This document shows, one piece after another, positions 1,809-47,879 of a stretch of 64,000 nt of DNA; position 1 is the first letter of the stretch; the number at the start of each line of letters is the position of its first letter. The notes beneath the pieces were generated by a model that saw nothing but the letters and a program-made list of their open reading frames with translations, had not been told where the DNA came from and did not search any database. A program made the translations under genes and the position numbers. Source of the DNA: Octopus vulgaris. Its lineage: Eukaryota. The stretch is from the NCBI GenBank assembly GCA_951406725.2, contig OX597822.1:113956001-114020000 (forward strand), in the 5' to 3' direction.

Positions 1809-2386
1809 TAAAATTATTTAATTAATATTCAAAACACAACATATATAATAATGTCAAATATATTTTAATAAATACTTCGTTATTTTCTAAAATGAGGCAA
1901 AAGCAGTATATTTCAACCTAAATATGGTTACAAATTATTCAACTTCTGCACTGAATATTAGGTAAATTCTAGGTAGAACAATGCATTCAATAACCTCTGC
2001 CAAATGGCACACAAACGAGAGGTGCGTTTTGAATTGCTTATTATTCTGTATTTGAAATTCTTTCGTTATTACAAGAAATGAGTCAGATAAATGAACCAGA
2101 ATTTTCAAGTTAGGCTACACTAGAAATTACAGACGTACAAGTTTTATAAAACGCAACTATTTTTCAGTGGTGCATCCTCAAATTTATTAAATAAGGAAAA
2201 AAAAAAAAAAAAAAGAAAAACCCTCGAAAAATAGTGAAATAATAATTAAGTCAAATATGTTTTTTTAGAAGTTGTATCTTCCAAATTTAATTATACATTG
2301 CCTGCTTTATGGTATCCAATCAATTTACACTAAATTCTTCACAAGTTATACGTCATCACAGTTTGACGGGAATTGTGAAAGGAAAA

Positions 2387-2789
2387 GAAGTGGCTGTGTG
2401 GTAAGTAGCTTGCTAACCAACCACATGGTTCCAGGTTCAGTCCCACTGCGTGGCATCTTGGGCAAGTATCTTCTGCTATAGCCTCGGGCCGATCAAAGCC
2501 TTGTGAGTGGATTTGGTAGACGGAAACTGAAAGAAGCCCGTCGTATATATGTATATATATATATGTGTGCGTGTATGTTTGTGTGTCTGTGTTTGTCTCC
2601 CTAGCATTGCTTGACAATCGATGCTGGTGTGTTTATGTCCCCGTTACTTAGCGGTTCGGCAAAAGAGACCGATAGAATAAGTACTGGGCTTACAAAGAAT
2701 AAGTCCCGGGGTCGAGTTGCTCGATTAAAGGCGGTGCTCCAGCATGGCCGCAGTCAAATGACTGAAACAAGTAAAAGAGAGTAAGAGAA
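2387..2789 (+). mobile_element. tRNA-derived CORE-type SINE (family A)
   Basis: A box TGGCTGTGTGG and B box GGTTCAGTCCC; CORE-like CTTGGGCAAGT; internal (TA/TG)n; tail GAAACAAGTAAAAGAG. Confidence 0.85.
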
Positions 2790-3345
2790 CCCATGAAATA
2801 AACGCATTTTACTGTGATCGATATAATGTGAACTATTTGCTCACTTATTTATACATTGTGAAATTATACAATTTCTAATGAAAACTATGCACTTAATAAA
2901 TATAATTATTAAGTCATATAATTATAATGTAAATTTCATTTCGTGTGCCGCATTCTCTCGAGATAAATAAAACTGGGGCACCTTTCTGTTGTCTTAGATA
3001 CAGACTCCTTCATTATAATAATTACGTCCCTTGGCAACGTGACCCCTAATTATTGCCTCGAACCTCATTTCTTCCCGGTAAATACTACAATAAAAATAAC
3101 CGAAGTTATTTTTTATTATTACGAAACTGCATCGTTAATTTCTTAATTAATTAAAAGGTAGGCATTGCAATAGCCAAACCCATAGCTTATTCTCCATCAA
3201 GCGGTGAATGGGAAATTTTTTATACCATAGATATCGTAACCATAACAATACAACACATTGTGCTTTAGAAAAGAATTTCCTCGTGTTAAGAAACGTAAAC
3301 ACTCTTGATAATCTTTTGAACGTATTTAATATATTCCTAATATAT

Positions 3346-3663
3346 TACTACTAGCGAACAGTGGTCCCGGTGTGCGCACACGCGCCATCGCGCTAGCTAG
3401 TCGTGACTAGTCGATCCTACAACGACTACCCTAGCAAAGTAAATAAAACACAAAATAAATAATTTTTTTACACAAAATAAATAATTTTTTTTACACAAAG
3501 TAAATAATTTTTTTAAAACAAAGTAAATAAAACACAAAAACACAAAGTAAATAATTTTTTGAACAAAGTAAATAACAAAAACACAAAGTATGGATCGACT
3601 AGTCATGACTAGCTGGTGCGGATACGCGAGTGCGCGCGCCGGGACCACTGTTCGCTAGTAGTA
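3346..3663. mobile_element. MITE with about 72-bp GC-rich terminal inverted repeats and an internal AT-rich minisatellite
   Basis: TACTACTAGCGAACAGTGGTCCCGG...GACTAGTCGATCC (3346-3417) mirrors 3592-3663. Terminal TA could be a target-site duplication. The interior is made of AAAGTAAATAA(TTTTT)/AACAC units. Confidence 0.85.
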
Positions 3664-3796
3664 CCTTTGATATATTCAATCTTTTCATTTCTTGTGATTT
3701 TCGCAAGCGTTTATGATTTTTTAAAAATATATATTTAAGGAAAAAAAACAGATTAAAAATTGGTTTTTATTTAACCTCAATAAGTTTGGTGTTTCC

Positions 3797-3835
3797 CCGG
3801 AAGTGACGACACAGACGAACTCGACATCTGATTGG
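3797..3835 (+). promoter_or_regulatory. Housekeeping-type proximal promoter of KAT2: overlapping ETS/half-CRE site plus reverse CCAAT box
   Basis: CCGGAAGTGACG at 3797-3808 and ATTGG at 3831-3835, about 200 bp upstream of the ATG at 4035; locally CpG-rich. Confidence 0.6.
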
Positions 3836-3916
3836 TTGTTTCTCTGCTTCTGTTGTTGCCAAACCGCAAAAATGGTGATGGGTGTTTTGGACTGATTCCC
3901 TTATTTAGCCTATATT

Positions 3917-3949
<33 letters not shown>

Positions 3950-4034
3950 TTCCCTATACGGTCTTAGCAGTATATACGTAAAAAAGAATCAGTCCTATTT
4001 TTAAAAAAACTAGTAACATCGAACCGATTGCTCT

Positions 4035-22506
<18,472 letters not shown>

Positions 22507-22998
22507 ACCATGCTGGGCGTTCCGGTTCAGATCCTTCCAAATCTCTGTAAAGAATGTGAATGCCTAACAACTTCAGCATGAAAGCTCTTAAGGACAGAGT
22601 TGTTAGTGGAAAGCTGCTGCTGCCACATGCCTTAGTGCTGATGAGGAACAGCAGAGGGGCAGCGTTCAGCAAGGAAGCCTACCATCGTTGGTTCTGCTAT
22701 AGCTCTTTGCTGTCCCTATAGCTAACTGCTGTGTCTGAATCAAGACTCAACTATTTGTACAAATCTCAACTAATTTGTACAGCAGCTACCAATGTAACCT
22801 ACACAAACTGACCAGTGCCATTGTGAAATATATATTTTGTTAAATCAAATTTGAATTTTAAGACTCTTCAACTTCATAATGCCATTCTGGTGTTTCAGTT
22901 CTTTTTCATAAATCATAACTTTCCAAGACTTCAGACATTGTTAGAGAGAAACTGATTTGTGGGAAGAGAAATAGTTTTTCACTTCATTATTTGACAAT

Positions 22999-23004
22999 AA
23001 TAAA
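22999..23004 (+). terminator. Candidate polyadenylation signal of KAT2
   Basis: AATAAA about 490 nt after the stop codon, followed by a T/GT-rich tract at about 23056-23075. Confidence 0.45.
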
Positions 23005-24399
23005 TCATTTTGTATATTTCCACATCATGAATATTTAACCACATTTAATTTCACTGTTTTTTTTTTTTGTGTGTGATAGTTTTGCAGCAATGCTTAAACT
23101 TATCAAACAAAAAGTGCAATTTATGCTAATTGTAATCAACTAAGTCTCTCTATCATGTTTTTTCTCCCTCTTTAATTTGAATAAGTGTTATACTGGATAC
23201 ATGAGTATCATATAATCCTTATTCATCATCATCATCATCGTTTAACGTCCGCTTTCCATGCTAGCATTGGTTGGACGATTTGACTGAGGGCTGGCGAACC
23301 AGATGGCTGCACCAGGCTCCAGTCTTGATCTGGCAGAGTTTCTACAGCTGGATGCCCTTCCTAACGCCAACCACTCCGTGAGTGTAGTGGGTGCTTTTTA
23401 CGTGCCACCTCACTCAAATATTATTACATGTGCCAATGGCACAGAGTTTTCATTGATGTAGAATAGAAGTTGATAAAGACTGGACAGTTGGCATTAGGGA
23501 GGGCATCCAGCCATAGAAACCATGCCAAAACAGACATGGAACCTGAACAGCACTTCAGCTCCTGTCCAACCCATGATAGAGTGGAAAACCTGTTACTTGA
23601 TGATGATAGTAAGGCAAAATGCTTAAATTATATTACCTGTGGTGGTATTTGATTGAGTCCAAATGATACTGGAGTTAACACTTTTCCATTTCTTCAAAGA
23701 AAATTGTTTAATACACTTCTCATAGCAACCTTCTTTTGAGACTGCCTCAAATTCAGTGATAAAAGTCTCTTGATTTATAGAAACCTAATGAAACCATCCA
23801 TATATTTCTTTTTTTTTTTGTTTAGTATTGAAAAATTCAGTTATTTTTGCCCATTTTCAATTAATTGAAACCTAAAAGCAGCTGGTCCATGAAGGGCAGT
23901 CACTAAGAGGAGTATAATATTTGGTGGAGTAGGTTACATATTAGTCACCAGAGACGAAAGGCTTGTGTGAGCTGTACAAGCCATGTGTAGAGATGCAGTC
24001 AACAATGGCAGAGCAGCAGATTGTTTTTGCCATAGCTCGATATTGGCTGATCATTGACTATTGGATGCTAACTAATGTGTTGAAGCATCACTAAAGGGCC
24101 TTTTTGCATGCATTCCTACTGAATCTCTGTGATTCGCATGCCATAATGGCATATTTAAAAAAGATATACTTATAGATTCAAATGCTCAGAATCCACATGG
24201 TGGTGCCCAGCTTTTGCATCTGTTCATAAAAGGTGGTCTTGACTTAGTGGAGACAAAATGTTTGATATCTGAACGGAGTCTCAGAGTCTGAAAGTGATTG
24301 TGATTTGTCCTTTTTTTTTTATGACATTCTGTGCATTCCTGCATGTTTTGTCTATTTGTTATACTTAGGTCAAGTGGGATAATAACAAAGGGAGAATTG

Positions 24400-27905: not shown

Positions 27906-28130
27906 TACAGGAAGTCACCCAACAGTAAATCCAAATTCCATACATGCCATCTGTAATTCTGTATTGACTCCGAGTGGAGAATGTGTCGCTCAAGAAAAAC
28001 TTCAGTTTGGACCATTTTCATGATGTCGCATATTAGATTTTTTTTTTATCAAATCCATTCAGTTGTTAAACATAAATAAATCTTGGAATTAAATGGTTTT
28101 GATTTACTGTCAGGTGACTTTTGGCCAACC

Positions 28131-28134
<4 letters not shown>
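27906..28134. mobile_element. Tc1/mariner-type MITE with a damaged left terminal inverted repeat
   Basis: The right end GATTTACTGTCAGGTGACTTTTGGCCAACCCTGTA mirrors the left TACAGG..AAGTCACCCAACAGTAAATC. Confidence 0.55.
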
Positions 28135-28167
<33 letters not shown>

Positions 28168-28274
28168 TAAATTCAGGGTGAATACTTGATAAATGTAAGC
28201 ACCTGTATACACCAGCTAGTAACAGAGGTGAGAGGGTATATATATCAAATAAAATCAAAAGCAGAACACAAAGG

Positions 28275-28376
28275 ATGTCGTGGTACATGTGTTTCAAGCT
28301 TTATAAATGACCTGTTCTTACACCAGTGTATAATAGATATAAAAGATGGTTTAAAGCTCTCTTCAGCCGCAAACAT
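28275..28376 (-). ncRNA. Type I hammerhead ribozyme motif, left arm of palindrome
   Basis: Mirror copy of 28444-28545; stem III reads CACATG. Confidence 0.6.
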
Positions 28377-28443
28377 TGTTATTCCAAAGAGTTACATCAC
28401 ACTATGAAAAATATGATGTGTGATGTAACTCTTTGGAATAACA

Positions 28444-28545
28444 ATGTTTGCGGCTGAAGAGAGCTTTAAACCATCTTTTATATCTATTATACACTGATGT
28501 AAGAATAGGTCGTTTATAAAGCTTGAAACACGTGTACCACGACAT
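28444..28545 (+). ncRNA. Type I hammerhead ribozyme motif (Penelope-like), right arm of palindrome
   Basis: Stem I ATGTTTGCGG/CCACGACAT (imperfect); core CTGAAGA 28454-28460; stem II GAGCTTTA..TAAAGCTT with a long insert; GAAA 28525-28528; palindromic stem III CACGTG; GUA cleavage triplet ending at 28536. Confidence 0.65.
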
Positions 28546-29487
28546 CCTTTGTGTTCTGTTTTTGATTTTATTTGATATATATATATATATATAACGACAT
28601 GATACCAAATTTTCTCCATTTTAAGAAGTTGCTACTAGTTACTTTTGAAGTCTTCTTTGACCAGTCAAATATCGGTTTACCTGGAACAAAACAATGAAGT
28701 TATTAATAAGAGGAGTTGAAATTTATGCATGAAGAATCACACAGCCGTAGCATCAAATAATCAGCCTATGAACTTTTCAGACTGCCTATGTAAGATGAGA
28801 AAGCATGGACATTGACTGCAGTGTCTGCAAAAGCTAGAAGCAAATGGAACGAGTATGCTTTGCTAGATGTATAACGTTTATGTGCATGAGTGACAGAATA
28901 AATAAACTAAGAAAAATTAGACATTTAGCAGAATCAATCTTAGTGTACAAGAGAAAACACTTTTCCTGTGTATGGACAACGAAAACTGTATAAAGACATG
29001 CTCCAAGTGAATGGAATTTGTGGAAGAAGAAAACTTTGGGGAACAAAATATTGAAGACTGATGTTGAGATGCTGCACCCTACAGAGGAAATGGCAAAGGA
29101 CTATGGCATTTGGTAACATGTGGTACTGGAGAGGACCTCCCCTCTATACATGTAGGCATGGAGAAACCTACATTAAATGAGGGGAATTAATGATGAATGG
29201 GATATATATATTTACATTGTTTTCTTTCACTCATTCCGTTCCTCCTGTCACCATTCTCACTTATTCATTACTCCCTGCCACCACTGCCACACTATTCACG
29301 GCATCCTGTCACCTGTATATTGAAAACATTGGATTCGTCTGCATTCCCATCATATGACAGATAACACTCTCGAATAATAGAATCTTTCAGTATGTGAATA
29401 CTTGGCTTGAAATAACATTATTCTGTAAATACAAGGAAGTGTTTAAAAAAAAAAGACCTGAAGCATGAATGTGGATTAATCAAAGGT

Positions 29488-35216: not shown

Positions 35217-38200
35217 ATGTTGTCAAACCTCTTCGTGTGCCTACTGTTTCTTCCGTGTGTCAACAGTCTTCATTTCTTTGACCAACAAAACTTTGGTAAG
35301 TTGAACAAATTGCTTCTTACATTTTACGTTACTTCTTTGATTACTTTCTTCTCGGTATTTAACACTGATGTTTCATATTGGGTTACTGAATTTCCTGGCA
35401 CTAAAAGAGCTATTTCAATTTCTCTTGGCAAATCTTAAAAGTCTGTTATGTTGCTCCAGTGTCAGAATCTAATCTCAGAGGAAGTCTTTTATATTAATTC
35501 TAAAAAACGAAAATATATTCTAAGGGGAGGCGGGAGGGTGTATATAAGTTAGTAATCCTCAAAATATTCTGCTGAACTTGTTATTATTTACCCTCTGATC
35601 AGCTCTAATCAAGCAGACATGGGCAGAAGGCTTTCCAGCTGTGACCATCACATTTTGTTTTTTTGAAATGTAATATACCTAGGATCACATTATCTAATAT
35701 AACCTTTCATGGGGGTATATTAGAGGGAGTTTGGGCTGTTATTTCTAGCAGGGAGAGGCTCCCACCTTGGTTCTTGTGAGGTTTCTAATACTGTGATACA
35801 CAGTAATTGTTATTTGTAGAAATAAATTGTAACAGAAAATATAATTATTTAAGAAATTAAATTAATCCTTAAAAAGCACCATCCGATCGTGGCCGTTGCC
35901 AGTCTCGCCTGGCCCCTGTGCTGGTGGCACGTAAAAAGCACCCATTACACTCACGGAGTGGTTGGCGTTAGGAAGGGCATCCAGCTGTAGAAGCATTGCC
36001 AGATCAGACTGGGCCTGGTGCAGCTTCCTGGCTTCCCAGATCCCAGTTGAACCGTCCAACCCATGCTAGCATGGAAAGCAGACGCTAAATGATGATGATG
36101 ATGAAGATGATACCATTTGTGAAATAGTTGATGTTGTACCTGTTATTTTGTTTCAACTGTCGTATTTTAGTTTGACTTTTTATTATTATTATTTTTAAAC
36201 TATTCATGAAAGTGGGGACAGTGCAAGCCCCCTGGGACTGGTGAGATTAATGCAGCTGATATCTAACCTGAACAGCTGCTCAGATTCTTCATGAAAGAGA
36301 ATTTGTGATCTGGTCTCAATGGCTGCAACAGGCTGAACTCTGCTAAAGGCCAGGTGGCTTAGTGTTAGTCTGAGCAGCTTGCTAGATTTATCACCCACGA
36401 TGTGTTTAAAGGGAAATAATTGCTGTATATTGATGCTTATGTGTGTTTGGTGTATTTATATAAGGGAACTTTGATTAAATATTAGAGACAGGGGTTTTAG
36501 AAAGGGTTGCTGTTTGACCCCGTGCTTGAGCAGAACTGCAATTAAATGTCTCCCAACCATGACAGTCTTGTATTTTTGTATATCCGAGGCTACATTCTTT
36601 AATGTACCCCTAAGACTAGGATTTTGGTTGTGATTTAAAAGATATTTCATCAACCCTGATCATCAACCTTTCATCAGCCCTAATGAAAGGTAAGAACATC
36701 AAAACCAGTTGGTTCTATTTTCGTCCCTGATTAGTTTTATATAAAATGTTTTACAGCTTCTGTTGTGAAGTGTAAGAGTCTTTATTATTTTCTTCCCAAC
36801 CTCATAAAATGGAGATAATGGGCACACAAGTTTTGATTGGCCTTTAATTTAATTTAATTAAACGCTTTAGCATTCAGATTAATCTGTCAAATGTAAAGCC
36901 TGTTTAATTACATTGTTTTAAATTAATTGTACAGCATCTTGTAACTCTGGGATTTTGATGATGACCCTGTTTATTTTTAGAATGACTTTGTAGGGTAGGT
37001 GCGAGAGGTCAGAGCTGGCTTGGTTTGTGCATAAAACAGGAAGACAATTTTGGCCTGGTATGGCCGGTTTAAACATTAAAGGGTTAATGATACACCAGGA
37101 ATTATTATCAAGCCACCATCAATTGTGCCTAATTTTGTTTGTATTTTAATTGGTAATCTTGTATTCCTTTAGCTTAGTATCTTGAGTACTTACTTGTACT
37201 TGTGACGGCGCTCACCCAGGGCAGGTTGAACCGGCTTCTTCTCTGGTCCTGATGGCATCATGAACCATGGCGGCTATTGCCATGGTAGTAGTAGGATTCA
37301 TAGAAGAAGTTTCATGGAAATATTTAATTCACAAACGGTCCCCGACATACCGCATGCATATCCCGAGTGATGCCCTGTTTGCCACGGAGTCTCCACAGAC
37401 GCAGGGATAGAATGACCTCGAGGCTGCCGGTTGCTGATCAGACACCTCTTGGAATTTTCACCAGAGCCCCGTTGGCCAGCCTGTAGCCCAAATACCGCTC
37501 GGTGCCTGACCAATCCGCCTTCGGTGGCCCTACCAGGAACCGAAGTTCCCGATGGCATAGCTCTGACACTGCCCGTTCACACCACCCTACCGCTTTGAGG
37601 AGAGGTTGGACTTTAGGGTAGAGTATCTTGAGTGATTGTAAACAAACTGGTTGCTTCTGTCTTCGTCCTTAACTGTTAAAATTATAATGATGACAATTTT
37701 TTTTTTTTTTGCAGAACACAGAAAGAATGTGCTGTTCATTGTTGTTGATGACCTTCGACCTACACTCGGTTGTTATGGAAACCCAGTGGTCATAACACCA
37801 AATATTGATCAGCTGGCTTCAAAATCAATAAAATTTGAGCGAACTTATGTCCAAGTAAGATCTTTGTTTGTATTTTGATCATTAATGTTGAATTACAGAT
37901 AATATTTTAAATTACCTAATCAGGGGATATTTCTTTTCATTAAAATTTCACATAGACATTCTAAGGTCCGTGATTTTGTCAACAACAGATGTTTCATCAA
38001 AGAATTATGTAAATGTGAAGCTAATGATGTTTGCAATAAATGGTGGCAAGCTAGCAGTATTGTTAGCATGCCAGCAAAAATGCACAATGGTATTTCATCA
38101 GTTTTTATGTTCTGAGTTCAAATTCTGCCAAAATCAACTTTGCCCTTCATCCTTTTGCAATCAGTAAAATAAGTACCAGTTGAATACTAGGGTTGATGTA

Positions 38201-38348
38201 AATGACTTCCCCATTTGCCTGGAATTGCTAGCCTTGTGCTAAAATTTGAAGCTCTTCCAGTACCTTAGTTTCACAATCACATGTGGTGCTGTCATTAATG
38301 TTTTAGATTATTTCAAAGATTTTCACTGAGGAGTTCCCAGGTATGATA

Positions 38349-38407
<59 letters not shown>

Positions 38408-41401
38408 GTGTGTGTGTGCATATCTTTTTATTTTTCATGTTATTTATTTACTTATTTCTTTTTTGATTAGCCTTTACTGTTATCATCTAGAAATCTAGTC
38501 CCCAATGAAATAATTAGTACTGACTTAAGACAAAATAGATTGAGAAGAATCTTAATCAATTAATCAAATGAGGATTGTACTCAAAAACTAAAGAAATGAT
38601 GTAGGCCAAGAGAAGTAACTCCTTTAGTCAGTTTTCAAATTATTTCACAAATTAATTACATATTTAAAGTTGCTTTACATATTAGTTACATGTCTTAGAT
38701 GGCTTCTTGTTACTCTTTACTCTTTTACTTGTCTCAGTCATTTGACTGTGGCCATGATGGAGCACCGCCTTTAGTCGAGCAAATCGACCCCAGGACTTAT
38801 TCTTTGTAAGCCTAGTACATATTCTATCAGTCTCTTTGCCAAACCGCTAAGTGACGGGGACGTAAACACACCAGCATCGGTTGTCAAGCGATGCTGGGGA
38901 GACAAACATATACACACACATACACACATATATATATGTATACATATATATATGACAGGCTTCTTTCAGTTTCTGTCTACCAAATTCACTCACAAGGCTT
39001 TGGTCGACCCGAGGCTATAGTAGAAGACACTTGCCCAAGGTGCCATGCAGTGGGACTGAACCTGGAACCATGTGGTTGGTAAGCAAGCTACTTAACCACA
39101 CAGTCACTCCTGCACCTGTTAATACAATTATAATTTTTGGGGACTATTTACCTTGTATTTGCTGATGAAAAAAAGATGTGTTAATATTTATATGTACAGT
39201 ACTGTGTTTAGATGTAAATATTAAAACTTCCATCTTAAATGATAAAGTTAAAAGAATTAATTGTATTGCTTATAAGTTCAATATAAATCTTCTCCGTTGA
39301 GTAGCAGGCTGTCTGTGGTCCAAGCAGAACATCTTTCTTAACGAGTCGTCGCCCAGATACAACCAGATTGTATAATTTTGGATCTTATTGGAGGAAAGCA
39401 GCTGGAAACTTCACCACTTTACCCCAATATTTCAAGGACAATGGTTACTTCACAGTTTCAGTAGGAAAAGTATTCCACCCAGGTATGTTATTTCCAAGGG
39501 ATGATTATTATAATCTTATTATGTATGTCTACTGCTAACCATTGATCAGATCTGACCTCTCACACCTACCCTACAACATCCTTCTAAAAATTAAAGAATA
39601 ACATTATTGAAATCTCAAAGCTATGATAATGCATGATTAATTTAATAATGAAATTATTGTATACAGTGCTCAGGTGCGCCACAACTTGTCAAAAGTGTGT
39701 ATAAAGCATATGCAGTAATGTACAAATGTCTGGAAAGCGAACAGTGTATGAGTCAGATACATGCTTGCGTGTGTATGGAGGGGAGAAAATCACGTGTAGT
39801 GTTGGCGAATCTCAGGAAGCATGGAAGTTTTGAAGGATGCAGTGCTCAGACAACTAACAATTGATGCCGGCAGTTTGTTCCATGCTTCAGCAACACTTAG
39901 CGTGAAAAAAATGTTTCCAAAAGTCATGGGAGCTGTGCTGTTTTCTGACTTTGTAAACATGTCCATAGGTGCTAGACGGGTGGAGTTTGAAAAGGTGCTC
40001 AGAGTTATTGTTTGTAAGATGGTTAATAATTTTATGGGTGTCTGCCAAGTCAGTTGCCAGACATCGGAGTTTCAATGTATCCATGCCCAGGGAAGTAAGG
40101 CATTCAGAATATGGCAAATGCCTGATGGACGGTATTCTCTTGGTTGCACATCGCCGAACGGCAATTAATATCCTGGGCAAGATAGGGGTTCCAGATTGGT
40201 GATGCCAATTCCAGGTGAGGTCATACCATAGCTATATATAGCCAGAGAGCGGCTCACAAAGGACTTGATAAGTGATGCCAAGACACCCTCAGCCTTCTTG
40301 GCAATTTTAGCAATTTAAAACAGTGTAAATAGTCTTACATTTGATGGAGTAATCTGAATACTAAAAGGTTTTCAGGGAGCACTAATGCATGTCTTTTCTC
40401 AATGTCAATTTTAGGACGTGCATCAGGTTTTACAGATGACTACCCATACAGCTGGAGCATACCCCCATACCATCCACCAACAGAGAAATATAAGATGGCC
40501 AAGGTAAAGTAAGCATTTTAAAATAGTTTCTTCTGGATTGATTAAAATGACTGAAATGAGTGGGATTTGAGGAAAATAATGATTGGTCTGTGGGAAAAAA
40601 TTATAAGTGAAACTGTAGGATCTGAGGAGTGCTAGCCACTACACATTCTTTATTTTCTCTTCTTGTTTCTTTCTGTGGAAAAGCGTTGGCTCGAAATGTT
40701 AAAGACTTTATCACTTCCCAAGCATTAAACAACTACATCTGTTTGTTGCCTACACTACCTGTCTTCATCTTTTGTTTTTTTGTGAATTCTCCCCAATAGG
40801 CGCAGGAGTGACTGTGTGGTAAGTAGCTTGTTTACTAACCACATGGTTCTGGGTTCAGTCCCACTGCGTGGCACCTTGGGCAAGTGTCTCCTACTATAGC
40901 CTCAGGCTGACCAAAGTCTTGTGAGTGGATTTGGTAGACGGAAACTGAAAGAAGCCCGTCATATATATATATATATGTGTGTGTGTGTGTATGTTTGTGT
41001 GTCTGTGTTTGTCCCCCCCAACATCGCTTGACAACCAATGCTGGTGTGTTTACATCCCCGTAACTTAGCGGTTCAGCAAGAGAGCCTGATAGAATAAGTA
41101 CTGGGCTTACAAAGAATAAGTCCCGGGGTCAAGTTGCTTGATTAAAGGCGGTGCTCCAGCATGGCCGCAGTCAAAATGACTGAAACAAGTAAAAAGAGAA
41201 AAAGAGAAAAAATACAAGGTAACATCTTATCATCATTGTTGTTTTATGTCCACTTTCCATCTTAGAACTCAAATTCTGCAGGTGTTGATTTACCAACTGA
41301 ATCAATCTCATTAATCATATCAGTCCAGGAAGATCTGCAGAAGGTCAAGGTCATTGCACTTTTACCTCTGACTAATAACACACACATGCACACTGATGCA
41401 T

Positions 41402-41435
<34 letters not shown>

Positions 41436-44400
41436 GTACTCTTTTAAATACAGGTTAACGAAAAACAAAAAAGTTCCCTCCTCCAATCGTAATAATTGTC
41501 ATAAATATCTTTGACAAATTTCTGAAATTGAGAATGGAAGATTTATCTTCAATTCTATAACACCAAATTGTTGTTGTTTAGTGCCAAAACATCTCCCTGA
41601 CTGAGCTGCCTTTTGATCAAAGACTTTCCAACTATGACAATTCCACATTACTAGAAGCATCAAGGACACTATTATCAATATTGTCCTTTTTTTAAGATGC
41701 TGGAATATAGTTGACTGAAATTTAACTGTTATTTTTAGGAGGCTGAGTGGCTCCCTTATTGGCTCTAATAGAAAATAGTTTCTATTTCAGGTGTGTCCTG
41801 GAGCAGATGGGAAACTTCATATGAATATTGTATGCCCTGTAGATGTCAATTCACAACCTGAACACAGTCTGCCTGATATACAAAGTACGGAATATGCAGT
41901 ACGGTTCCTGAAAGAAAGAGCCCTGAATAAAAGCAAGCAGCCATTCTTTTTAGCTGTTGGTTACCACAAACCTCACATACCCCTGAAATACCCCAAAAGT
42001 TATCTTGGTAAGTACAAATTCCTTTCTGGTTCTGCTAACCTTTTATTGTCTCTTGTTAATCATTCTTGATGCTGAAGATGTTATGTTCTTATGGGAAGAA
42101 AATAATTGGATGTCTGGATGAGTGTTAAAGGTTCTTTTGCATTTGAATGGCATTATTGTATATAAGCAATCATAATAATATCCATTGGTCTTTGTTGAAT
42201 TTATTGATGTTTGATGGTGGTGCTTTCATTAGAGCCAACAGATTCCCTCAACAATTCTATGGTAATGCTTTATTGCCATACTACCCCTTGTATGGTGTCT
42301 ATTTTTGAATCTAGATAGATGAGTCAATTACAGATGAGGTACTTGGCTCTAGTCCCATTGCAGAATTCTAACTGCTGGCTCCTCAGTTGCCTGGTGGTGT
42401 GATTCTAATTAGAAATATTTGCCATGATCAAATGCGCCGCCTCGACTGGCTTCTGTGCTGGTGGCACATAAAAAGCACCATCCGAACGTGGCCGATGCCA
42501 GCACCGCCTTGGCTGGCTTCCGTGCCAGTGGCACGTTAAAAGCACCAACCGATCGTGGCCATTGCCAGACCCACCCTGGCACCTGTGCAGGTGGCACGTA
42601 AAAAGCACCCACTACACTCGCGGAGTGGTTGGCGTTAGGAAGGGCATCCAGCTGTAGAAACACTGCCAGATCAGACCGGAGCCTGGTGCAGCCTTCTGGC
42701 TTCCCAGACTCCGTCCAAACCGTGCTAGCGCGGAAAACAGACGTTAAACGATGATGATGATGATGATGAAATGATGACCAACACTCTTAACAACTCAAAG
42801 ACATGAACCAAGTAAGGGTACTCTGTATGGTCATATGACCTGCTAGAAATAACAGCTAAAACACCATCAACGGATACTCTATCATCTTCAAAAAGGTTAA
42901 GACACATATTCACCCAGAATAATGTAACTTTGTATGCCTTATAGCTTAAACAAAGACTTCAAGATCACAAGTTGAATGTTTTATTTTCTTATGATTTACT
43001 TAAATGAAGAAGGGTTATACAAAAAACCTCTCAGACAGATGGAAGTAAAGAGTAAAGGGGGAAAGTATTTGAAACCTGACCCCAATGCATAAAACTGTAA
43101 GTTAAACAACAGCAATACAGCTAGATGAAACTTTCTTTCAAAGACAATGCACATATTTTTTTCAGAGGCCAAACATAAAGCAAAATCTCAAATTCTTTGT
43201 AGATCTCTACCCTTTTCCTGAAATAAAACTACCGAAAGACCACAATTATCCTCCAGGCTTTCCAGCAGTCGCCTGGAACCCATTGCTTGATCTTCAAAGA
43301 AGGGAAGATGTTGCAAAACTGAATGTTAGTTTTCCATTTGGGCCTTTACCAGACCATTTCCAAGTAAGTGATATCATAAAAGGTTTTACACTTCATCTCT
43401 CTCTCTCCTCTCCTCCTCTCACACACATTTATTTGTTTCTTTACTACCCACAAGGGGCTAAACACAGAGGGAACAAACAAAGACAGACAAAGGGATTAAG
43501 TCGATTACATTGACCCCAGTGCGTAACTGATACTTAATTTATCGATCCTGAAAGGATGAAAGGCAAAGTCGACCTCGGCGGAATTTGAGCTCAGAAACAT
43601 AACGGCAGACGAAATACAGCTATGCATTTCGCCCGGCGTGCTAACAGTTCTGCCAGCTTGCCGCCTTCACCTCACACACATTCATTGTTAGGGTACCTAT
43701 AGAGCATCAGTTATGAATATATTTTTTTGACTCATTTTAAAATTCAATTCACATCAAAGGGCCAATTTGAAGATTGAAGTGAAGGTTTCATTGTTATTTA
43801 ACAGTTCTTCAGGATTCCTTTTGATCTCATTCCCCTCTGTACCAAATAAATGCCAGCCACTGGTTGCTGCCGTTGTCATTGTCGTTTATTTAGTTCACAA
43901 CAGGACTTATAGTTTGTGGAAAGAAAGCAATCTTCTTAAGTTTATAAGGGACCAGAAGATATGGCAAATTGCTGGACTTGATAAGACACGTCAAGCTAAA
44001 CAAAATTGCTGTCTTCCACTTATAAAGCACTCCTGCTGCATTAACACACCCGTGCCGGTGACATATAAAAAGCACCCAGCATACTCTGTGAAGTGGTTGA
44101 CATTAGAAAGGGTATCTAGCCATAAAAACCATGCCACAACAGACAGTTGAAGCCTGGACAGCTCTCTGCTAGCCAGCTCCATGTCAAACTGTCCAACCCA
44201 TGCCAGCATGGAGAGCGAGTGTTAAACGATGTTGATGGCTAGAAGAATATCTCAAAACAAATCTCCCCACTACGAGGATGGATAAGGGGACATTGCAGAA
44301 GTAACAAAAAATGTGGAGGTTTTACATAAAAATTGTTTAAAATGAAAATTGAGAGAATGCATAAAGTGTCCAGTTGAGGATCATCAACTTAGATTAATGA

Positions 44401-45322
44401 AGGAAATCCATGAATTCAGGATTATCCTGACTACCAAGAATTAGTGCCCTTCTTTCAGATATATTCTTCAGCCTGTAGATACATGATGTGGGTAGGCATT
44501 TTCATTCTGTGTTGACACTCACAATCACCTTTCAGCAGATTTATAAAAGGGCTGAGCCCTCACCCACCAACTCCCACCTACGAAACTTGAAAAAGTCAAT
44601 GTGGGCCTTTGCTTGTACCATAGCCAACATCTAAGACTCTGCATCCAGCAGGGTAATGGGCCAAAAATTATTGATAATGTTTATTTTACTTAGGTTTTTC
44701 TTTAGCAGTGCAACCACTTCCCAGTCTTCTGCTAGTTGTAATAAGGACCTGTCAGGATCAAAAGGAACAGCAGAAAATGGAGATTTAAAACAGAAACAAT
44801 CTCCAAAATAAGGAATGTTTTGGGAATGATTAAGAAAAGTTGCTTGGAGGTTATAGGCTTCTAGTAAAATTATTCATGTCTTGCAAACAACTTGCACATG
44901 CAAGTGCTACCAGTTAAAACCTCCGTATACCGGAAGCTAACAAGTGTATGGGGTCATCAGGAGAGAATGCGCGCTGTTTCGGGGCCTACCTCTCGACGGC
45001 ATCAATGCGCACCGGCCCCCCTCACTGATATGAGGCCCCGCTTGCTAGATCAGCTGGTTATGAAGAACTCAATATACCTCTAGCCATCGCTCATCATTTC
45101 TTTTTAACCAAATCCAGTGGCTAGCCTTCTCCACTGTAGATTGATTCCCTGTTGTCGCTATTTAATAAAGAATGACCATCAGCACCTCTACATTTTCACC
45201 TCTGGAGTGTCCTGAATGCTGAATCTATATTTATGGACATCTTGAGCCATGGTAGATCAAGAAATCTTATCACAGTAATGTCTAGGATAAATATTTTTTA
45301 TTTATTACACACACACACTGTG

Positions 45323-45374
<52 letters not shown>

Positions 45375-47879
45375 GTGCTTGAGGAGACCTATTGAGTCAA
45401 GTACATCAACATAAAAAAAATCAAATGGAAATTGTAGTTGTGATACCTCTGCCAGTGGCACCTAAAAGAGCACCATCCGTACGTGGCCGATGCCAGCGTC
45501 ACCTTGACTGGCTTCCGTGCTGGTGGCACGTAAAAAGCACCAACCGATTGTGGCCACTGCCAGCCTCGTCTGGCACCTGTGCCAGTGGCATGTAAAAAGC
45601 ACCCACTAGACTCACGGAGTGGTTGGCGTTAGGAAGGGCATCCAGCTGTAGAAACACTGCCAGATCAAGATTGGAGCCTAATGCAGCCTCCTGGCTTCCC
45701 AAACCCCGGTCGAACTGTCCAAGCCATGCTAGCATGGAAAACGGATATTAAACGATGATGATGATGATGATGATATAAAAAAATAGGCGAGTGAAATAAT
45801 AAAAAGATGTGTAACAATGAAGTGTGGGTTAGCCAAACAATATTGCTCGGATGTTTCTATTCTTTATTCATTCACAGCCAGAGTTTATTTAATTGTTTTC
45901 TCCAGAAACTTATAATTCAGAGTTACTATGCAGCTACAAGCTACACCGATGGTCAGATAGGACAGTTACTCACTTCTTTGGACAAAAATGGTTTCGCTGA
46001 CAATACAATCATTTCAATTATTGGAGATCATGGTAAGTTGACACAACTTATAATGCAACTAAGAATTTCTTTGCTATTATCCCATTTCTATTTACATAGA
46101 AATGTAAGCAATAGGATCACATGTGGTCGTGTCGTGTAGGAAATACGATCGCACGTGGTTCTACTCTTAACGAATTATTACAAGCCATAAATACATGCAG
46201 TAACAACAGAACATAAGTGAATTGACGACAAGTCTTGCTGTTGAGATATAAATATTGTTTATTTTACAATCGTGTCAACGTTAGGAGTTTGTAAGCGTTC
46301 GCATGTCTTGTGTCTGTGTGTGGCAGGACAATCAGGGTGAATGCGGCTGGCATAGAAGGTACATGATGGTGGCGATGGGGAAGATAGTAGGCTTTCTATG
46401 ATTGTGTGCATTAGCGTAGCCGGTAGTAGCCGGAACAATCGTATATCGCCTGGTTGAGTAACGCTGTGGCCTAAAGTTAGTTCTTAGAAGAACTGGAACT
46501 AAAAGACGAAAAGTGTCTGAAAACACTCCTTTATATACCTGTTGGTTGGCTCAAACGAGCCTCAAAAAACGGAATCTTAACCAAAGGCCGTGATTGGTTA
46601 TTTCGGGACAGTGGCACGAAATAAGTAGAGACAAATCGCGTCACGTGTCAACCAATCAGGTTAGTGTTTACAACAGGAACTAGTTGGCCAAAGATGGCTG
46701 TAACCTCAAACGAGATCATTTCTTGCCTTGCCTTTCAACAGTGATGATATTAGAAATCGCTATAGTCATATTTCAAAATGGCTGAAACTGCCATGCTACA
46801 GAAATATTTTTATGTCTAAATGCTTGAGATGAGGTGTTGTAATTTAGGTTATAATTTTCTAGACTCATCTTTACAGTCTGAATATTTTCCTGCATTTATA
46901 TCTCTATGTTGTGATTTATTCAGCTAATTTGAAAACACTTTCAATATTGAGATAATTATGAAAATCTAAAGAAATTCAAATTGTTTTTAATGATTTCTAA
47001 TGTTGAAACATTTCTACTTTCCCTTTTTCAGGCTGGGTTCTTGGGGAGCATCAGGCATGGTCTAAATTTTCTAACTTTGAAGAGGCAGTTCGAGTTCCTT
47101 TTATAATGCATATTCCTGGCCTGACTTCAAAACCTTTTGCACCTGGTTTCAATTTTCCCTTTCAAGATTCATTCAAATTTTTTAACAAGTCTCAAACCCT
47201 GAAAAACTCTTTGAACATTAAATCAAACAAACTGAAAAAATTTTCATCTGTTGATGCCATTCTGAGAGGAAATGAATACAGTACGAATGAATCAGAGGAT
47301 GCATTAAATGCCGTTTCTCACAGACAAATTGAGAGGGAATTTGCTGGGCCTTTCATTAAAAACACTCAGTTTGTCAGTAACGTTTTTGTGGAGCTGGTAG
47401 ATTTATTTCCTACGTATGCAGAGCTAGTTGGTTTACCTTTACCTGAGCTATGTCCCCGAAACTCATCATTAATCAAAGTATGTACAGAAGGAGTCAGTTT
47501 AGTAAAAGTAATCAAGGAAACCCTGAAATTGCCCAATCTACCCAACAGTGTCGGCCGACATTGGAAAAAGGCAACTTTCAGTCAGTATCCCCGTCCATCG
47601 GATTTCCCTCAAATGGATAGTTTGTTGCCACATTTAAAGCACATCAAAATCATGGGATATTCAATGAGAACCAACGACTACAGATATACAGAATGGGTAG
47701 GTTTTAATCACACTAGTTTTACTCCTGTATGGGAAGACTTGCATGCAACAGAATTATACTCCTTCGACTCTTCTGACTATAACAGAGCCATAGATCCAAA
47801 ATATGCTTCTTTAGTTAGAGAGTTATCAAAGAAACTTCATGCTGGCTGGAGAGCAGCCTTACCCCAAAATATATATTAA
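35217..47879 (+). CDS. IDS: Iduronate 2-sulfatase (lysosomal sulfatase), spliced, about 612 aa
   Basis: join(35217..35295,37715..37854,39305..39482,40415..40503,41791..42007,43203..43363,45906..46032,47032..47879) = 1839 nt, phase-consistent GT-AG. Signal peptide [17 protein letters not shown]; [12 protein letters not shown]; formylglycine motif CGPSR followed by RRPDTTRLY; GKVFHPG; GYHKPHIP; GDHGW; FSQYPRP; IMGYSMRT. Confidence 0.95.
36400..36730 (+). mobile_element. Possible Penelope-like element 3' remnant with decayed hammerhead (36676-36714)
   Basis: One frame reads IYIREL*LNIRDRG, resembling the C-terminal IYIR..LNRD.G motif of Penelope ORFs. It is followed by AGCC CTAATGA ... AAAA CCAG TT GGTT. 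Confidence 0.3.
37188..37621 (-). mobile_element. Young 5'-truncated non-LTR retrotransposon 3' fragment with 12-bp TSD
   Basis: AGTATCTTGAGT duplicated at 37176-37187 and 37622-37633. The minus strand ends in CAAGTACAAGTAAGT. GC/CpG-rich, with an open frame [21 protein letters not shown]...KIPRGV*. Confidence 0.75.
38711..39116 (-). mobile_element. SINE family A
   Basis: Reverse-complement homologue of 2387-2789. Confidence 0.85.
39643..40313 (-). mobile_element. CR1-type LINE 3' fragment nested in a TTAA-type MITE
   Basis: ORF 39887-40180 is homologous to 8275-8721. The flanks at about 39545-39642 and 40315-40370 are two halves of the MITE seen intact at 29488-29713. Confidence 0.85.
40668..40705 (+). 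ncRNA. Degenerate hammerhead motif, second copy of the same small repeat (about 40640-40795)
   Basis: TCTTT CTGTGGA A AAGC gttg GCTC GAAA TG T T AAAGA. The flank is the reverse-complement homologue of about 47970-48125. Confidence 0.35.
40799..41208 (+). mobile_element. SINE family A
   Basis: Starts GGCGCAGGAGTG; full length. Confidence 0.85.
46103..46800 (-). mobile_element. Solo LTR (698 bp, Gypsy-like 4-bp TSD), antisense in an IDS intron
   Basis: TGTAAGCA...TGCTACA termini with GAAA duplicated at 46099-46102 and 46801-46804. On the minus strand: CCAAT boxes (about 46592, 46651), TATATAAA (about 46530-46537), then AATAAA (about 46258-46263), in LTR order. Confidence 0.75.

What the first reader, a model, noticed from the sequence alone, without database searches (positions are those of the whole stretch)
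28237..28583. 347-bp palindrome carrying two head-to-head hammerhead ribozymes
Seen: 166-bp arms with only 5 transition mismatches around a 15-nt spacer. Each arm reads outward as a type I hammerhead (CUGAAGA, stem II with a long foldable insert, GAAA, palindromic stem III, GUA, stem I). Known: Penelope-like elements carry minimal hammerheads in pseudo-LTRs that can occur inverted, and palindromic stem III allows dimeric cleavage. Inference: this is a non-coding fold-back element. A read-through transcript from either side would form a long dsRNA that masks the ribozyme (a Dicer/ADAR substrate), while transcripts starting near the centre could self-cleave. Both arms share the same stem I mismatch and a G-U at the base of stem II, so the inversion post-dates the decay.
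Basis: partly seen in the sequence, partly recalled or inferred. Interest (0 to 1): 0.75.

Follow-up and report, generated by a model that had tools for sequence, protein, structure and literature searches.

The report
Two-armed Penelope retrotransposon stub
The palindrome is two truncated tail ends of a common Penelope-type jumping gene, each with a hammerhead ribozyme motif, joined head-to-head in a TA repeat; this is a known kind of genomic debris, and its fixed short-end/long-end pattern suggests both sides of a DNA break likely started copying the element's RNA at once.

Summary
The palindrome and both hammerhead motifs are real, but it is not a stand-alone fold-back element. The family is common (416 exact hits of a 20-mer). 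Longer copies carry RT, an Asn-rich linker and a GIY-YIG endonuclease with Hydra-clade motifs upstream of the same ribozyme. Head-to-head pairs recur (14 of 37 ribozyme-selected loci; 11 of 22 tail-selected loci). All 33 tabulated pairs join one short end to one tailed end; 10 of 33 break off within 25 nt of each other (3.6 expected, p=0.001). This fits priming from both strands of one cut at two start sites (inferred). The stem II G-U is the family norm, not decay. Rfam gives no hammerhead hit, covariation is not above shuffles, and no 5' end sits at the cleavage site. Inverted PLE copies with tails, opposite-strand hammerhead pairs and Hydra elements are published. This scan has already noted the same architecture and rule in this genome and others.

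The parts
28134..28166 (.). Left (TA)n target microsatellite (host)
   Evidence: family ends abut (TA)n at most loci
28167..28244 (-). PLE tail (+45 to about +117 from the cleavage site), present only on the left copy; in L085 the same sequence leads straight into the ORF start
28167..28416 (-). Left copy: tailed 3' end of the PLE, 5'-truncated 132 nt upstream of the cleavage site
   Evidence: L001 m[-132..+133]; loose ends at 28416 continue as family sequence
28280..28370 (-). Left hammerhead motif (core 28366-28360, GAAA 28295-28292, predicted cut after 28284); stem III palindrome broken at 28288, stem I mismatch at 28281
28403..28417 (.). Spacer: 14 nt of extra 5' sequence of the left copy plus 1 junction base; head-to-head junction
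28418..28580 (+). Right copy: short-ended 3' end of the PLE (ends at +44, merging with (TA)n), 5'-truncated 117 nt upstream of the cleavage site
   Evidence: L001 p[-117..+44]
28450..28540 (+). Right hammerhead motif: stem I 28450-53/28537-40 (C-A mismatch 28451/28539), core 28454-60, long stem II 28461-28524, GAAA 28525-28, stem III 28528-35, predicted cut after 28536
28576..28593 (.). Right (TA)n target microsatellite (first bases shared with the element's TATA end)

Best explanation
This is one insertion of a Hydra-type Penelope-like retrotransposon, made of two 5'-truncated 3' ends joined head-to-head in a (TA)n repeat, and it likely formed when both strands of one cut each primed reverse transcription, one at the short start site and one at the tail start site. 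Shown: identity of the family, its RT/EN parent, the (TA)n target, the short/tailed asymmetry and its recurrence. Inferred: the enzyme came in trans from a coding copy, cut (TA)n, and extended both 3' ends on the element's RNA, often the same RNA molecule; the two cDNAs stopped near the same point (-132 and -117) and were joined end to end. The RNA template was uncleaved at the hammerhead, since both arms span the cut site. Today the locus is most likely inert, decaying DNA; any read-through RNA would bury the ribozyme in a 166-bp hairpin.
For: Family: 1347 first-look candidates, 40 scored, 94-97% identity; 416 exact 20-mer matches, 0 for the reversed control. Parent: of 20 loci fetched for the endonuclease, 10 have the same hammerhead end downstream on the same strand within the 9.9 kb taken, and L082, L085, L086, L087, L093 show RT fragments, EN and hammerhead in one orientation. 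L082, L084 and L090 have an inverted 3' end abutting the truncated RT. In L085 the tail precedes the ORF start. Rule: 22 of 22 pairs and 11 of 11 new pairs picked on the tail alone are one short plus one tailed end (random assortment 1.7e-7 and 0.0017). Either arm can reach further 5' (15 vs 18 of 33), which a simple snap-back from the tailed arm cannot give. 10 of 33 pairs end within 25 nt of each other against 3.6 by permutation, p=0.001. In 9 of 13 measurable pairs at most 4 of about 79 outside arms are as close to either arm as its partner, also across 0.5-2.2 kb spacers. In vitro a PLE protein cuts and extends both strands and starts at two sites that bound the tail (PMC11167929, text parts 1-2 of 4).
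Against: The mechanism is inferred from insertion anatomy only. The coupling of truncation points is significant in the first set (6 of 22, p=0.006) but not alone in the tail-selected set (4 of 11, p=0.10), and overall rank correlation is weak (rho 0.16, p=0.38). Five long-arm ends were set by hand from physical spacing, and five pairs (L100-L104) were picked because they were pairs. L106 has matching ends (-269/-280) but arms 9.6% apart with different subfamily markers, against one template there; L014 arms are also not each other's nearest. A palindrome of a diverged relative (78%) inside L094 has two short-type ends, and L074 holds a small tail-to-tail piece. No target-site duplication can be read inside (TA)n. 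No intact ORF was seen in the copies fetched; an active source was not shown. Clade assignment rests on motifs, with no tree.
Confidence: 0.85

Rival explanations
1. Same PLE origin, but the second arm was made by self-priming (snap-back) of one cDNA or on an antisense template, as proposed for Adineta Penelope palindromes.
For: The 15-nt loop and a short duplicated stretch at the junction fit a fold-back with slippage; arms share variants; self-priming is the published proposal (PMC3846280, passages).
Against: Snap-back from the tailed cDNA requires the tailed arm to reach further 5'; it does so in only 15 of 33 pairs, and L099, L111, L017 carry a tail-only stub opposite a longer short arm. 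It may still explain single loci, including this one.
Confidence: 0.12
2. One PLE fragment inserted and was later duplicated in inverted form by a host DNA event (hairpin repair or conversion), as the first reader implied by dating the inversion after the decay.
For: Both arms share two differences from the family majority (at -88 and +3).
Against: A later random inversion would not end exactly at the family's short 3' end, which it does in 33 of 33 pairs. One shared change is a subfamily marker (22 of 75 arms) and the other a recurrent CpG transition (12 of 86). Some arm-to-arm conversion after insertion is not excluded.
Confidence: 0.03
3. The locus is a functional, host-kept RNA element (regulated ribozyme, or Dicer/ADAR hairpin).
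For: The right motif keeps all core bases and its stem III palindrome; a very stable hairpin would form; core positions vary less than other positions across arms (1.9% vs 9.1%).
Against: The arms differ from the family majority at 6 (left) and 3 (right) sites, like other copies; stem I has a mismatch; no covariation above shuffles; the core contrast includes CpG and subfamily sites and reflects source elements, not this copy; the site lies about 5 kb past the end of KAT2 transcript contigs and about 9.5 kb before the first IDS coding exon found.
Confidence: 0.04
4. Assembly artefact (fold-back read chimera).
For: Short-read contigs of four runs did not bridge the junction (uninformative for a multi-copy repeat).
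Against: Arms differ at 5 sites and have different, family-specific 3' ends and different flanks; the same architecture recurs at dozens of loci.
Confidence: 0.01

Closest known systems
Hydra clade of C-terminal EN+ Penelope-like elements (Craig et al. 2021, PMC8557442; passages, section 11, supplement part 2 of 59), including Hydra-1_Obim and Penelope-13_HM
   Same: RT then C-terminal GIY-YIG; CxCX5C linker; no CCHH cysteine pair between GIY and YIG; CxxC and CxH around E/N; (TA)n targets; type I hammerhead near the 3' end, several with G-U before GAA; Penelope-13_HM is listed with an inverted 5'-truncated copy and a hammerhead on both strands.
   Different: RWA instead of RWK and DKI instead of DKT in the copies read; much longer (L085 spans about 7.5 kb with insertions, against <3 kb) with an Asn-rich linker and a 2-4 kb microsatellite-rich 3' region; stem II region of 64 nt; tail about 70-90 nt against the 30-40 bp quoted for PLEs; ribozyme sequence differs from Hydra-1_oBim, so a different family.
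EN+ PLE insertions with inverted pseudo-LTR and one-sided tail (PMC8557442 Fig. 2 legend; Adineta vaga Penelope, PMC3846280 passages)
   Same: Head-to-head inverted truncated copy, tail on one end only, AT-rich targets, Asn-rich inserts in the ORF.
   Different: Here both copies are cut down to under 260 nt, so the whole insertion looks like a palindrome; no TSD readable; the one-short/one-tail rule is counted (33 of 33).
Minimal hammerheads of metazoan PLEs (Cervera and de la Pena 2014, PMC4209133; text parts 1-2 of 4)
   Same: Type I, long helix II, short helix I, palindromic helix III; that paper already reports dual motifs 100-700 bp apart on opposite strands and low in vitro activity.
   Different: G-U rather than G-C at 10.1-11.1 in most copies (G-C in 3 of 42), and a much longer helix II insert.
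Poseidon PAc of Anolis (Frangieh et al. 2024, PMC11167929; text parts 1-2 of 4)
   Same: [quoted passage not shown]
   Different: Other PLE clade; that text describes no two-armed product in the parts read.
Non-LTR retrozymes (bioRxiv 10.64898/2026.07.22.740005; part 1 of 5)
   Same: Non-coding, type I hammerhead, PLE-derived.
   Different: Retrozymes are head-to-tail tandem units; this is a head-to-head pair with variable 5' ends and a coding parent.

Membership tests
EN+ Penelope-like element | RT followed by GIY-YIG endonuclease linked to this 3' end | tested here: met
   Pfam matches weak and under cut-off (RVT_1 E 0.011, GIY-YIG E 0.03); Atlas neighbours RVT_1/HTH_animal 0.90-0.94 and GIY-YIG 0.94-0.95. 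Met by other copies, not by the window copy itself.
EN+ Penelope-like element | Pseudo-LTR with hammerhead, 5' truncation, inverted copy, one-sided tail | tested here: met
EN+ Penelope-like element | RT groups with PLE RTs in a tree | not tested
   No classified reference proteins were held as stored sequences
Hydra clade | CCHH cysteine pair between GIY and YIG absent | tested here: met
   5 of 5 aligned ENs have a short spacer with a single Cys
Hydra clade | Linker CxCX5C | tested here: met
   X5 in 3 of 5 aligned copies, X4 and X3 in the other two
Hydra clade | [quoted passage not shown] | tested here: met
   5 of 5
Hydra clade | N-terminal RWK motif; DKG changed to DKT | tested here: inconclusive
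   RWA and DKI in L084/L085; nearest named homologue P0002 has RWM and DKT
Hydra clade | Insertion into (TA)n | tested here: met
Hydra clade | Generally short (<3 kb) | tested here: not met
   L085 tail-to-hammerhead 1916-9492; EN-to-hammerhead distance about 1.3-4.3 kb. The paper gives this as a tendency; I file the family as Hydra-type, not as a proven member.
Neptune/Nematis/Poseidon clades | CCHH motif in the EN | tested here: not met
   against definitions
Type I hammerhead ribozyme | Core CUGANGA, GAAA, UH and three stems | tested here: met
   (91% of cells paired, 32-45% when slid)
Type I hammerhead ribozyme | Match to Rfam hammerhead models | tested here: not met
   likely due to the long insert (inference)
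Type I hammerhead ribozyme | Compensatory covariation | tested here: inconclusive
   2 pairs with double change against 3.0 in shuffles, 42 arms; copies too alike. Four other families in the genome keep the same core layout with unrelated stems.
Type I hammerhead ribozyme | Self-cleavage | not testable with these tools
   needs an in vitro assay
Non-LTR retrozyme | Head-to-tail tandem units each with a hammerhead | tested here: not met
MITE / fold-back DNA transposon | Fixed-length symmetric terminal inverted repeats | tested here: not met
   ends are asymmetric and inner breakpoints vary from +48 to about -4000

The most novel reading that the evidence does not exclude
Penelope-like elements routinely integrate by two-sided priming: a dimeric enzyme extends both ends of one cut on the same RNA from two fixed start sites, so every inverted insertion has one short and one tailed end and often matching 5' break points. 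These palindromes would then be direct fossils of the PLE integration intermediate and explain the clade's tail and inverted-copy puzzle.
Probability: 0.5. Interest if true: 0.55.

Novelty: new member of a known kind. Interest (0 to 1): 0.25.

Why it matters
The locus itself is ordinary retroelement debris. Its value is as one data point for how Penelope-like elements make inverted copies and tails, which Craig et al. 2021 call an open mechanistic question. The strict short/tailed pairing and coupled break points give a prediction that the existing in vitro system could test. The family is also an unusually long Hydra-type element with a long-stem hammerhead that Rfam misses, which matters for repeat and ribozyme annotation in cephalopod-like genomes.

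Tried and rejected
Rfam: only microRNA-type hairpin matches under their cut-offs, no hammerhead. Neptune assignment (my reading) dropped after the motif check. Cleavage-defined 5' ends: 0 of 66 arm ends within 3 nt of the cut, 59 of 66 upstream of it. Covariation test: not above shuffles. Tail structure: no stable fold in 3 of 3 copies, z -0.2 to -0.8. Sequencing runs: no RNA holder listed. DNA contigs of 4 runs show the family in four organism labels and the unique flanks, but none bridges the junction. Contigs of 4 runs guessed to be RNA cover the KAT2 3' end to 22956-23039, give only short repeat-type matches on the palindrome and no cover at 28817-29217; this is no evidence on expression or editing. 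IDS exon 1 was not located, so an IDS 5' intron is not excluded. L099 was fetched as a possible full-length element but holds two separate head-to-head pairs. Paper searches: penelope + twin priming + inverted gave 2 unrelated papers; hammerhead + octopus + penelope gave 5 papers, 4 listed, one relevant; a five-term search gave nothing new among 15 of 66 listed. The held library lacks most subscription papers, so absence from print is not shown. Only 1 of 59 supplement parts of PMC8557442 was read, with one term search; its alignment figures were not seen, and bioRxiv supplements are closed. Sequence look-up in earlier findings was empty.

Full report
Observation. The inverted repeat is as described: arms 28237-28402 and 28418-28583, 166 nt, 15-nt spacer, five transitions, folding at -275.8 kcal/mol, z -40.6. 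Each arm read outward has a type I hammerhead layout; the right one has CUGAAGA at 28454, GAAA at 28525 and a predicted cut after 28536. My motif scan finds only these two in the window and 1 hit in 20 shuffles. Rfam hammerhead models do not match.

The repeat family. The window lies in a 2.8-Gb animal genome; the best named relative of the family's RT is from Argonauta hians, 48% identical, so the host is probably an octopus-like cephalopod (inference). One arm has 1347 first-look candidates, 40 scored, at 94-97% identity; a 20-mer over the core has 416 exact matches and its reversed control none. Copies end at one of two places, about +44 or about +115 to +133 nt from the cleavage site (52 short, 41 tailed, 2 other of 95 arms), mostly against (TA)n. 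The window's left arm is of the tailed kind and continues about 70 nt beyond the palindrome to about 28167; the right arm is of the short kind. Fourteen of the 15 spacer bases are family sequence of the left copy. The true insertion is about 28167-28580.

The parent. Walking upstream led through 2-4 kb of non-coding, microsatellite-rich sequence to a GIY-YIG endonuclease. Of 20 loci fetched for the endonuclease, 10 have the hammerhead end downstream on the same strand within the stretch taken, and five (L082, L085, L086, L087, L093) show RT fragments, endonuclease and hammerhead in one orientation. L082, L084 and L090 have an inverted 3' end abutting the truncated RT, the long version of the window's structure; in L085 the tail leads into the ORF start. 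All ORFs seen are broken or truncated. Pfam support is weak and under cut-off; the Atlas places the two domains with RVT_1/HTH_animal and GIY-YIG clusters. The endonuclease has a CxCX5C linker (3 of 5 aligned copies; X4 and X3 in the others), no CCHH cysteine pair, and CxxC and CxH motifs. These, with (TA)n targeting, are the marks of the Hydra clade (PMC8557442 section 11), whose table lists an Octopus family and an element with an inverted truncated copy and hammerheads on both strands. RWK and DKT are only approximated and the element is longer than typical, and no tree was built, so I call it Hydra-type.

Recurrence and rule. Head-to-head partners carrying a family 3' end occur within the fetched flanks at 14 of 37 independent loci (window included; paired rows and one local duplicate merged) and at 11 of 22 new loci selected on the tail alone (two loci already seen and five duplicates of one locus dropped). 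All 22 pairs and all 11 join one short and one tailed end (1.7e-7 and 0.0017 under random assortment); L017, dropped by a length filter, also fits. The tailed arm reaches further 5' in 15 of 33 pairs and the short arm in 18. Ten of 33 pairs break within 25 nt of each other against 3.6 by permutation (p 0.001), but the tail-selected set alone is not significant (4 of 11, p 0.10) and rank correlation is weak. Partner arms are usually each other's close relatives (9 of 13 pairs). Against: L106 has matched ends but arms 9.6% apart; L014 arms are not nearest relatives; a diverged relative in L094 has two short-type ends; L074 holds a tail-to-tail piece. Five pairs were chosen as pairs and five long-arm ends were set by hand.

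Mechanism. A PLE protein in vitro cuts AT-rich DNA, extends both strands, starts at two sites that bound the tail, is predicted to be a dimer, and does not need ribozyme cleavage (PMC11167929). The simplest reading of the genomic pattern is that both ends of one cut in (TA)n primed cDNA synthesis, one at each start site, often on the same RNA, and that the two truncated cDNAs were joined head-to-head. This is inference. Snap-back self-priming (PMC3846280) could make this particular locus, but does not explain pairs in which the short arm is the longer. No 5' end lies at the cleavage site (0 of 66) and 59 of 66 lie upstream of it, so templates were mostly uncleaved there.

The ribozymes today. 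The right motif keeps its core and stem III palindrome; the left has lost the palindrome. Both carry a C-A mismatch in stem I from a CpG transition seen in 12 of 86 arms and in one arm only at four other pairs, so it cannot date the inversion. The G-U at the base of stem II is the family norm (39 of 42, G-C in 3). The stems pair in 91% of cells, but compensatory change is not above shuffles. The two motifs are on opposite strands, so one transcript carries one ribozyme and its antisense and would fold into the long hairpin. The site lies between the 3' end of a KAT2-type gene (name recalled from the translated acetyltransferase and bromodomain exons; transcript contigs end at 22956-23039) and the first iduronate-2-sulfatase coding exon found, at about 37.7 kb. 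Expression was not testable with the runs offered.

Novelty. Inverted truncated copies, one-sided tails, opposite-strand hammerhead pairs and the Hydra clade are published. The family appears distinct from Hydra-1_oBim by its ribozyme sequence. I found no paper stating the short/tailed rule or two-sided priming for PLEs (limited library). Earlier notes of this scan, read after my analysis, report the same architecture and reading in this and other genomes; they are not independent support. Verdict: real, explained, a new member of a known kind; interest 0.25.

Noticed in passing
L035, L045, L094 (motifs); also L047, L050-L056, L060 by eye: A second hammerhead family with the swapped core pair G3-C8 and a 4-nt palindromic stem III; it forms its own inverted pairs (inside L035/L070 and at L094:655-692) and shares an upstream stretch with the family studied.
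   Followed up: partly
L040:168-404; L044, L066, L109; L075; L045: At least three more hammerhead families with long stem II and 6-nt palindromic stem III; the L040 one is again a head-to-head pair.
   Followed up: no
family position about -275 to -285 from the cleavage site (L007, L025, L027, L106, L110, L118, L120, L125, L128): Many alignments stop at the same place; some are true junctions (L025, L106), so it may be a truncation hot spot, or partly an alignment break.
   Followed up: no
L085:3874-5028, L082:5401-6783: Long Asn-rich in-frame linker between RT thumb and endonuclease, as described for Adineta Penelope elements.
   Followed up: partly
L070 and L071: Two loci on different contigs share about 6.5 kb at 87-96% including a host-like exon and the same truncated PLE: a probable segmental duplication.
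   Followed up: no
window 10385-10560 and 22288-22505; 37715-47879: Exons of a KAT2/GCN5-type acetyltransferase (name recalled) and of iduronate-2-sulfatase on the + strand; IDS exon 1 not found.
   Followed up: partly
L064, L069, L074, L083, L024, L006: RT or GIY-YIG fragments of other Penelope-like families near the fetched copies.
   Followed up: no
window 28020-28130 and 28600-28730: Both flanks are themselves high-depth repeats in DNA contigs, so the insertion may sit inside an older repeat.
   Followed up: no
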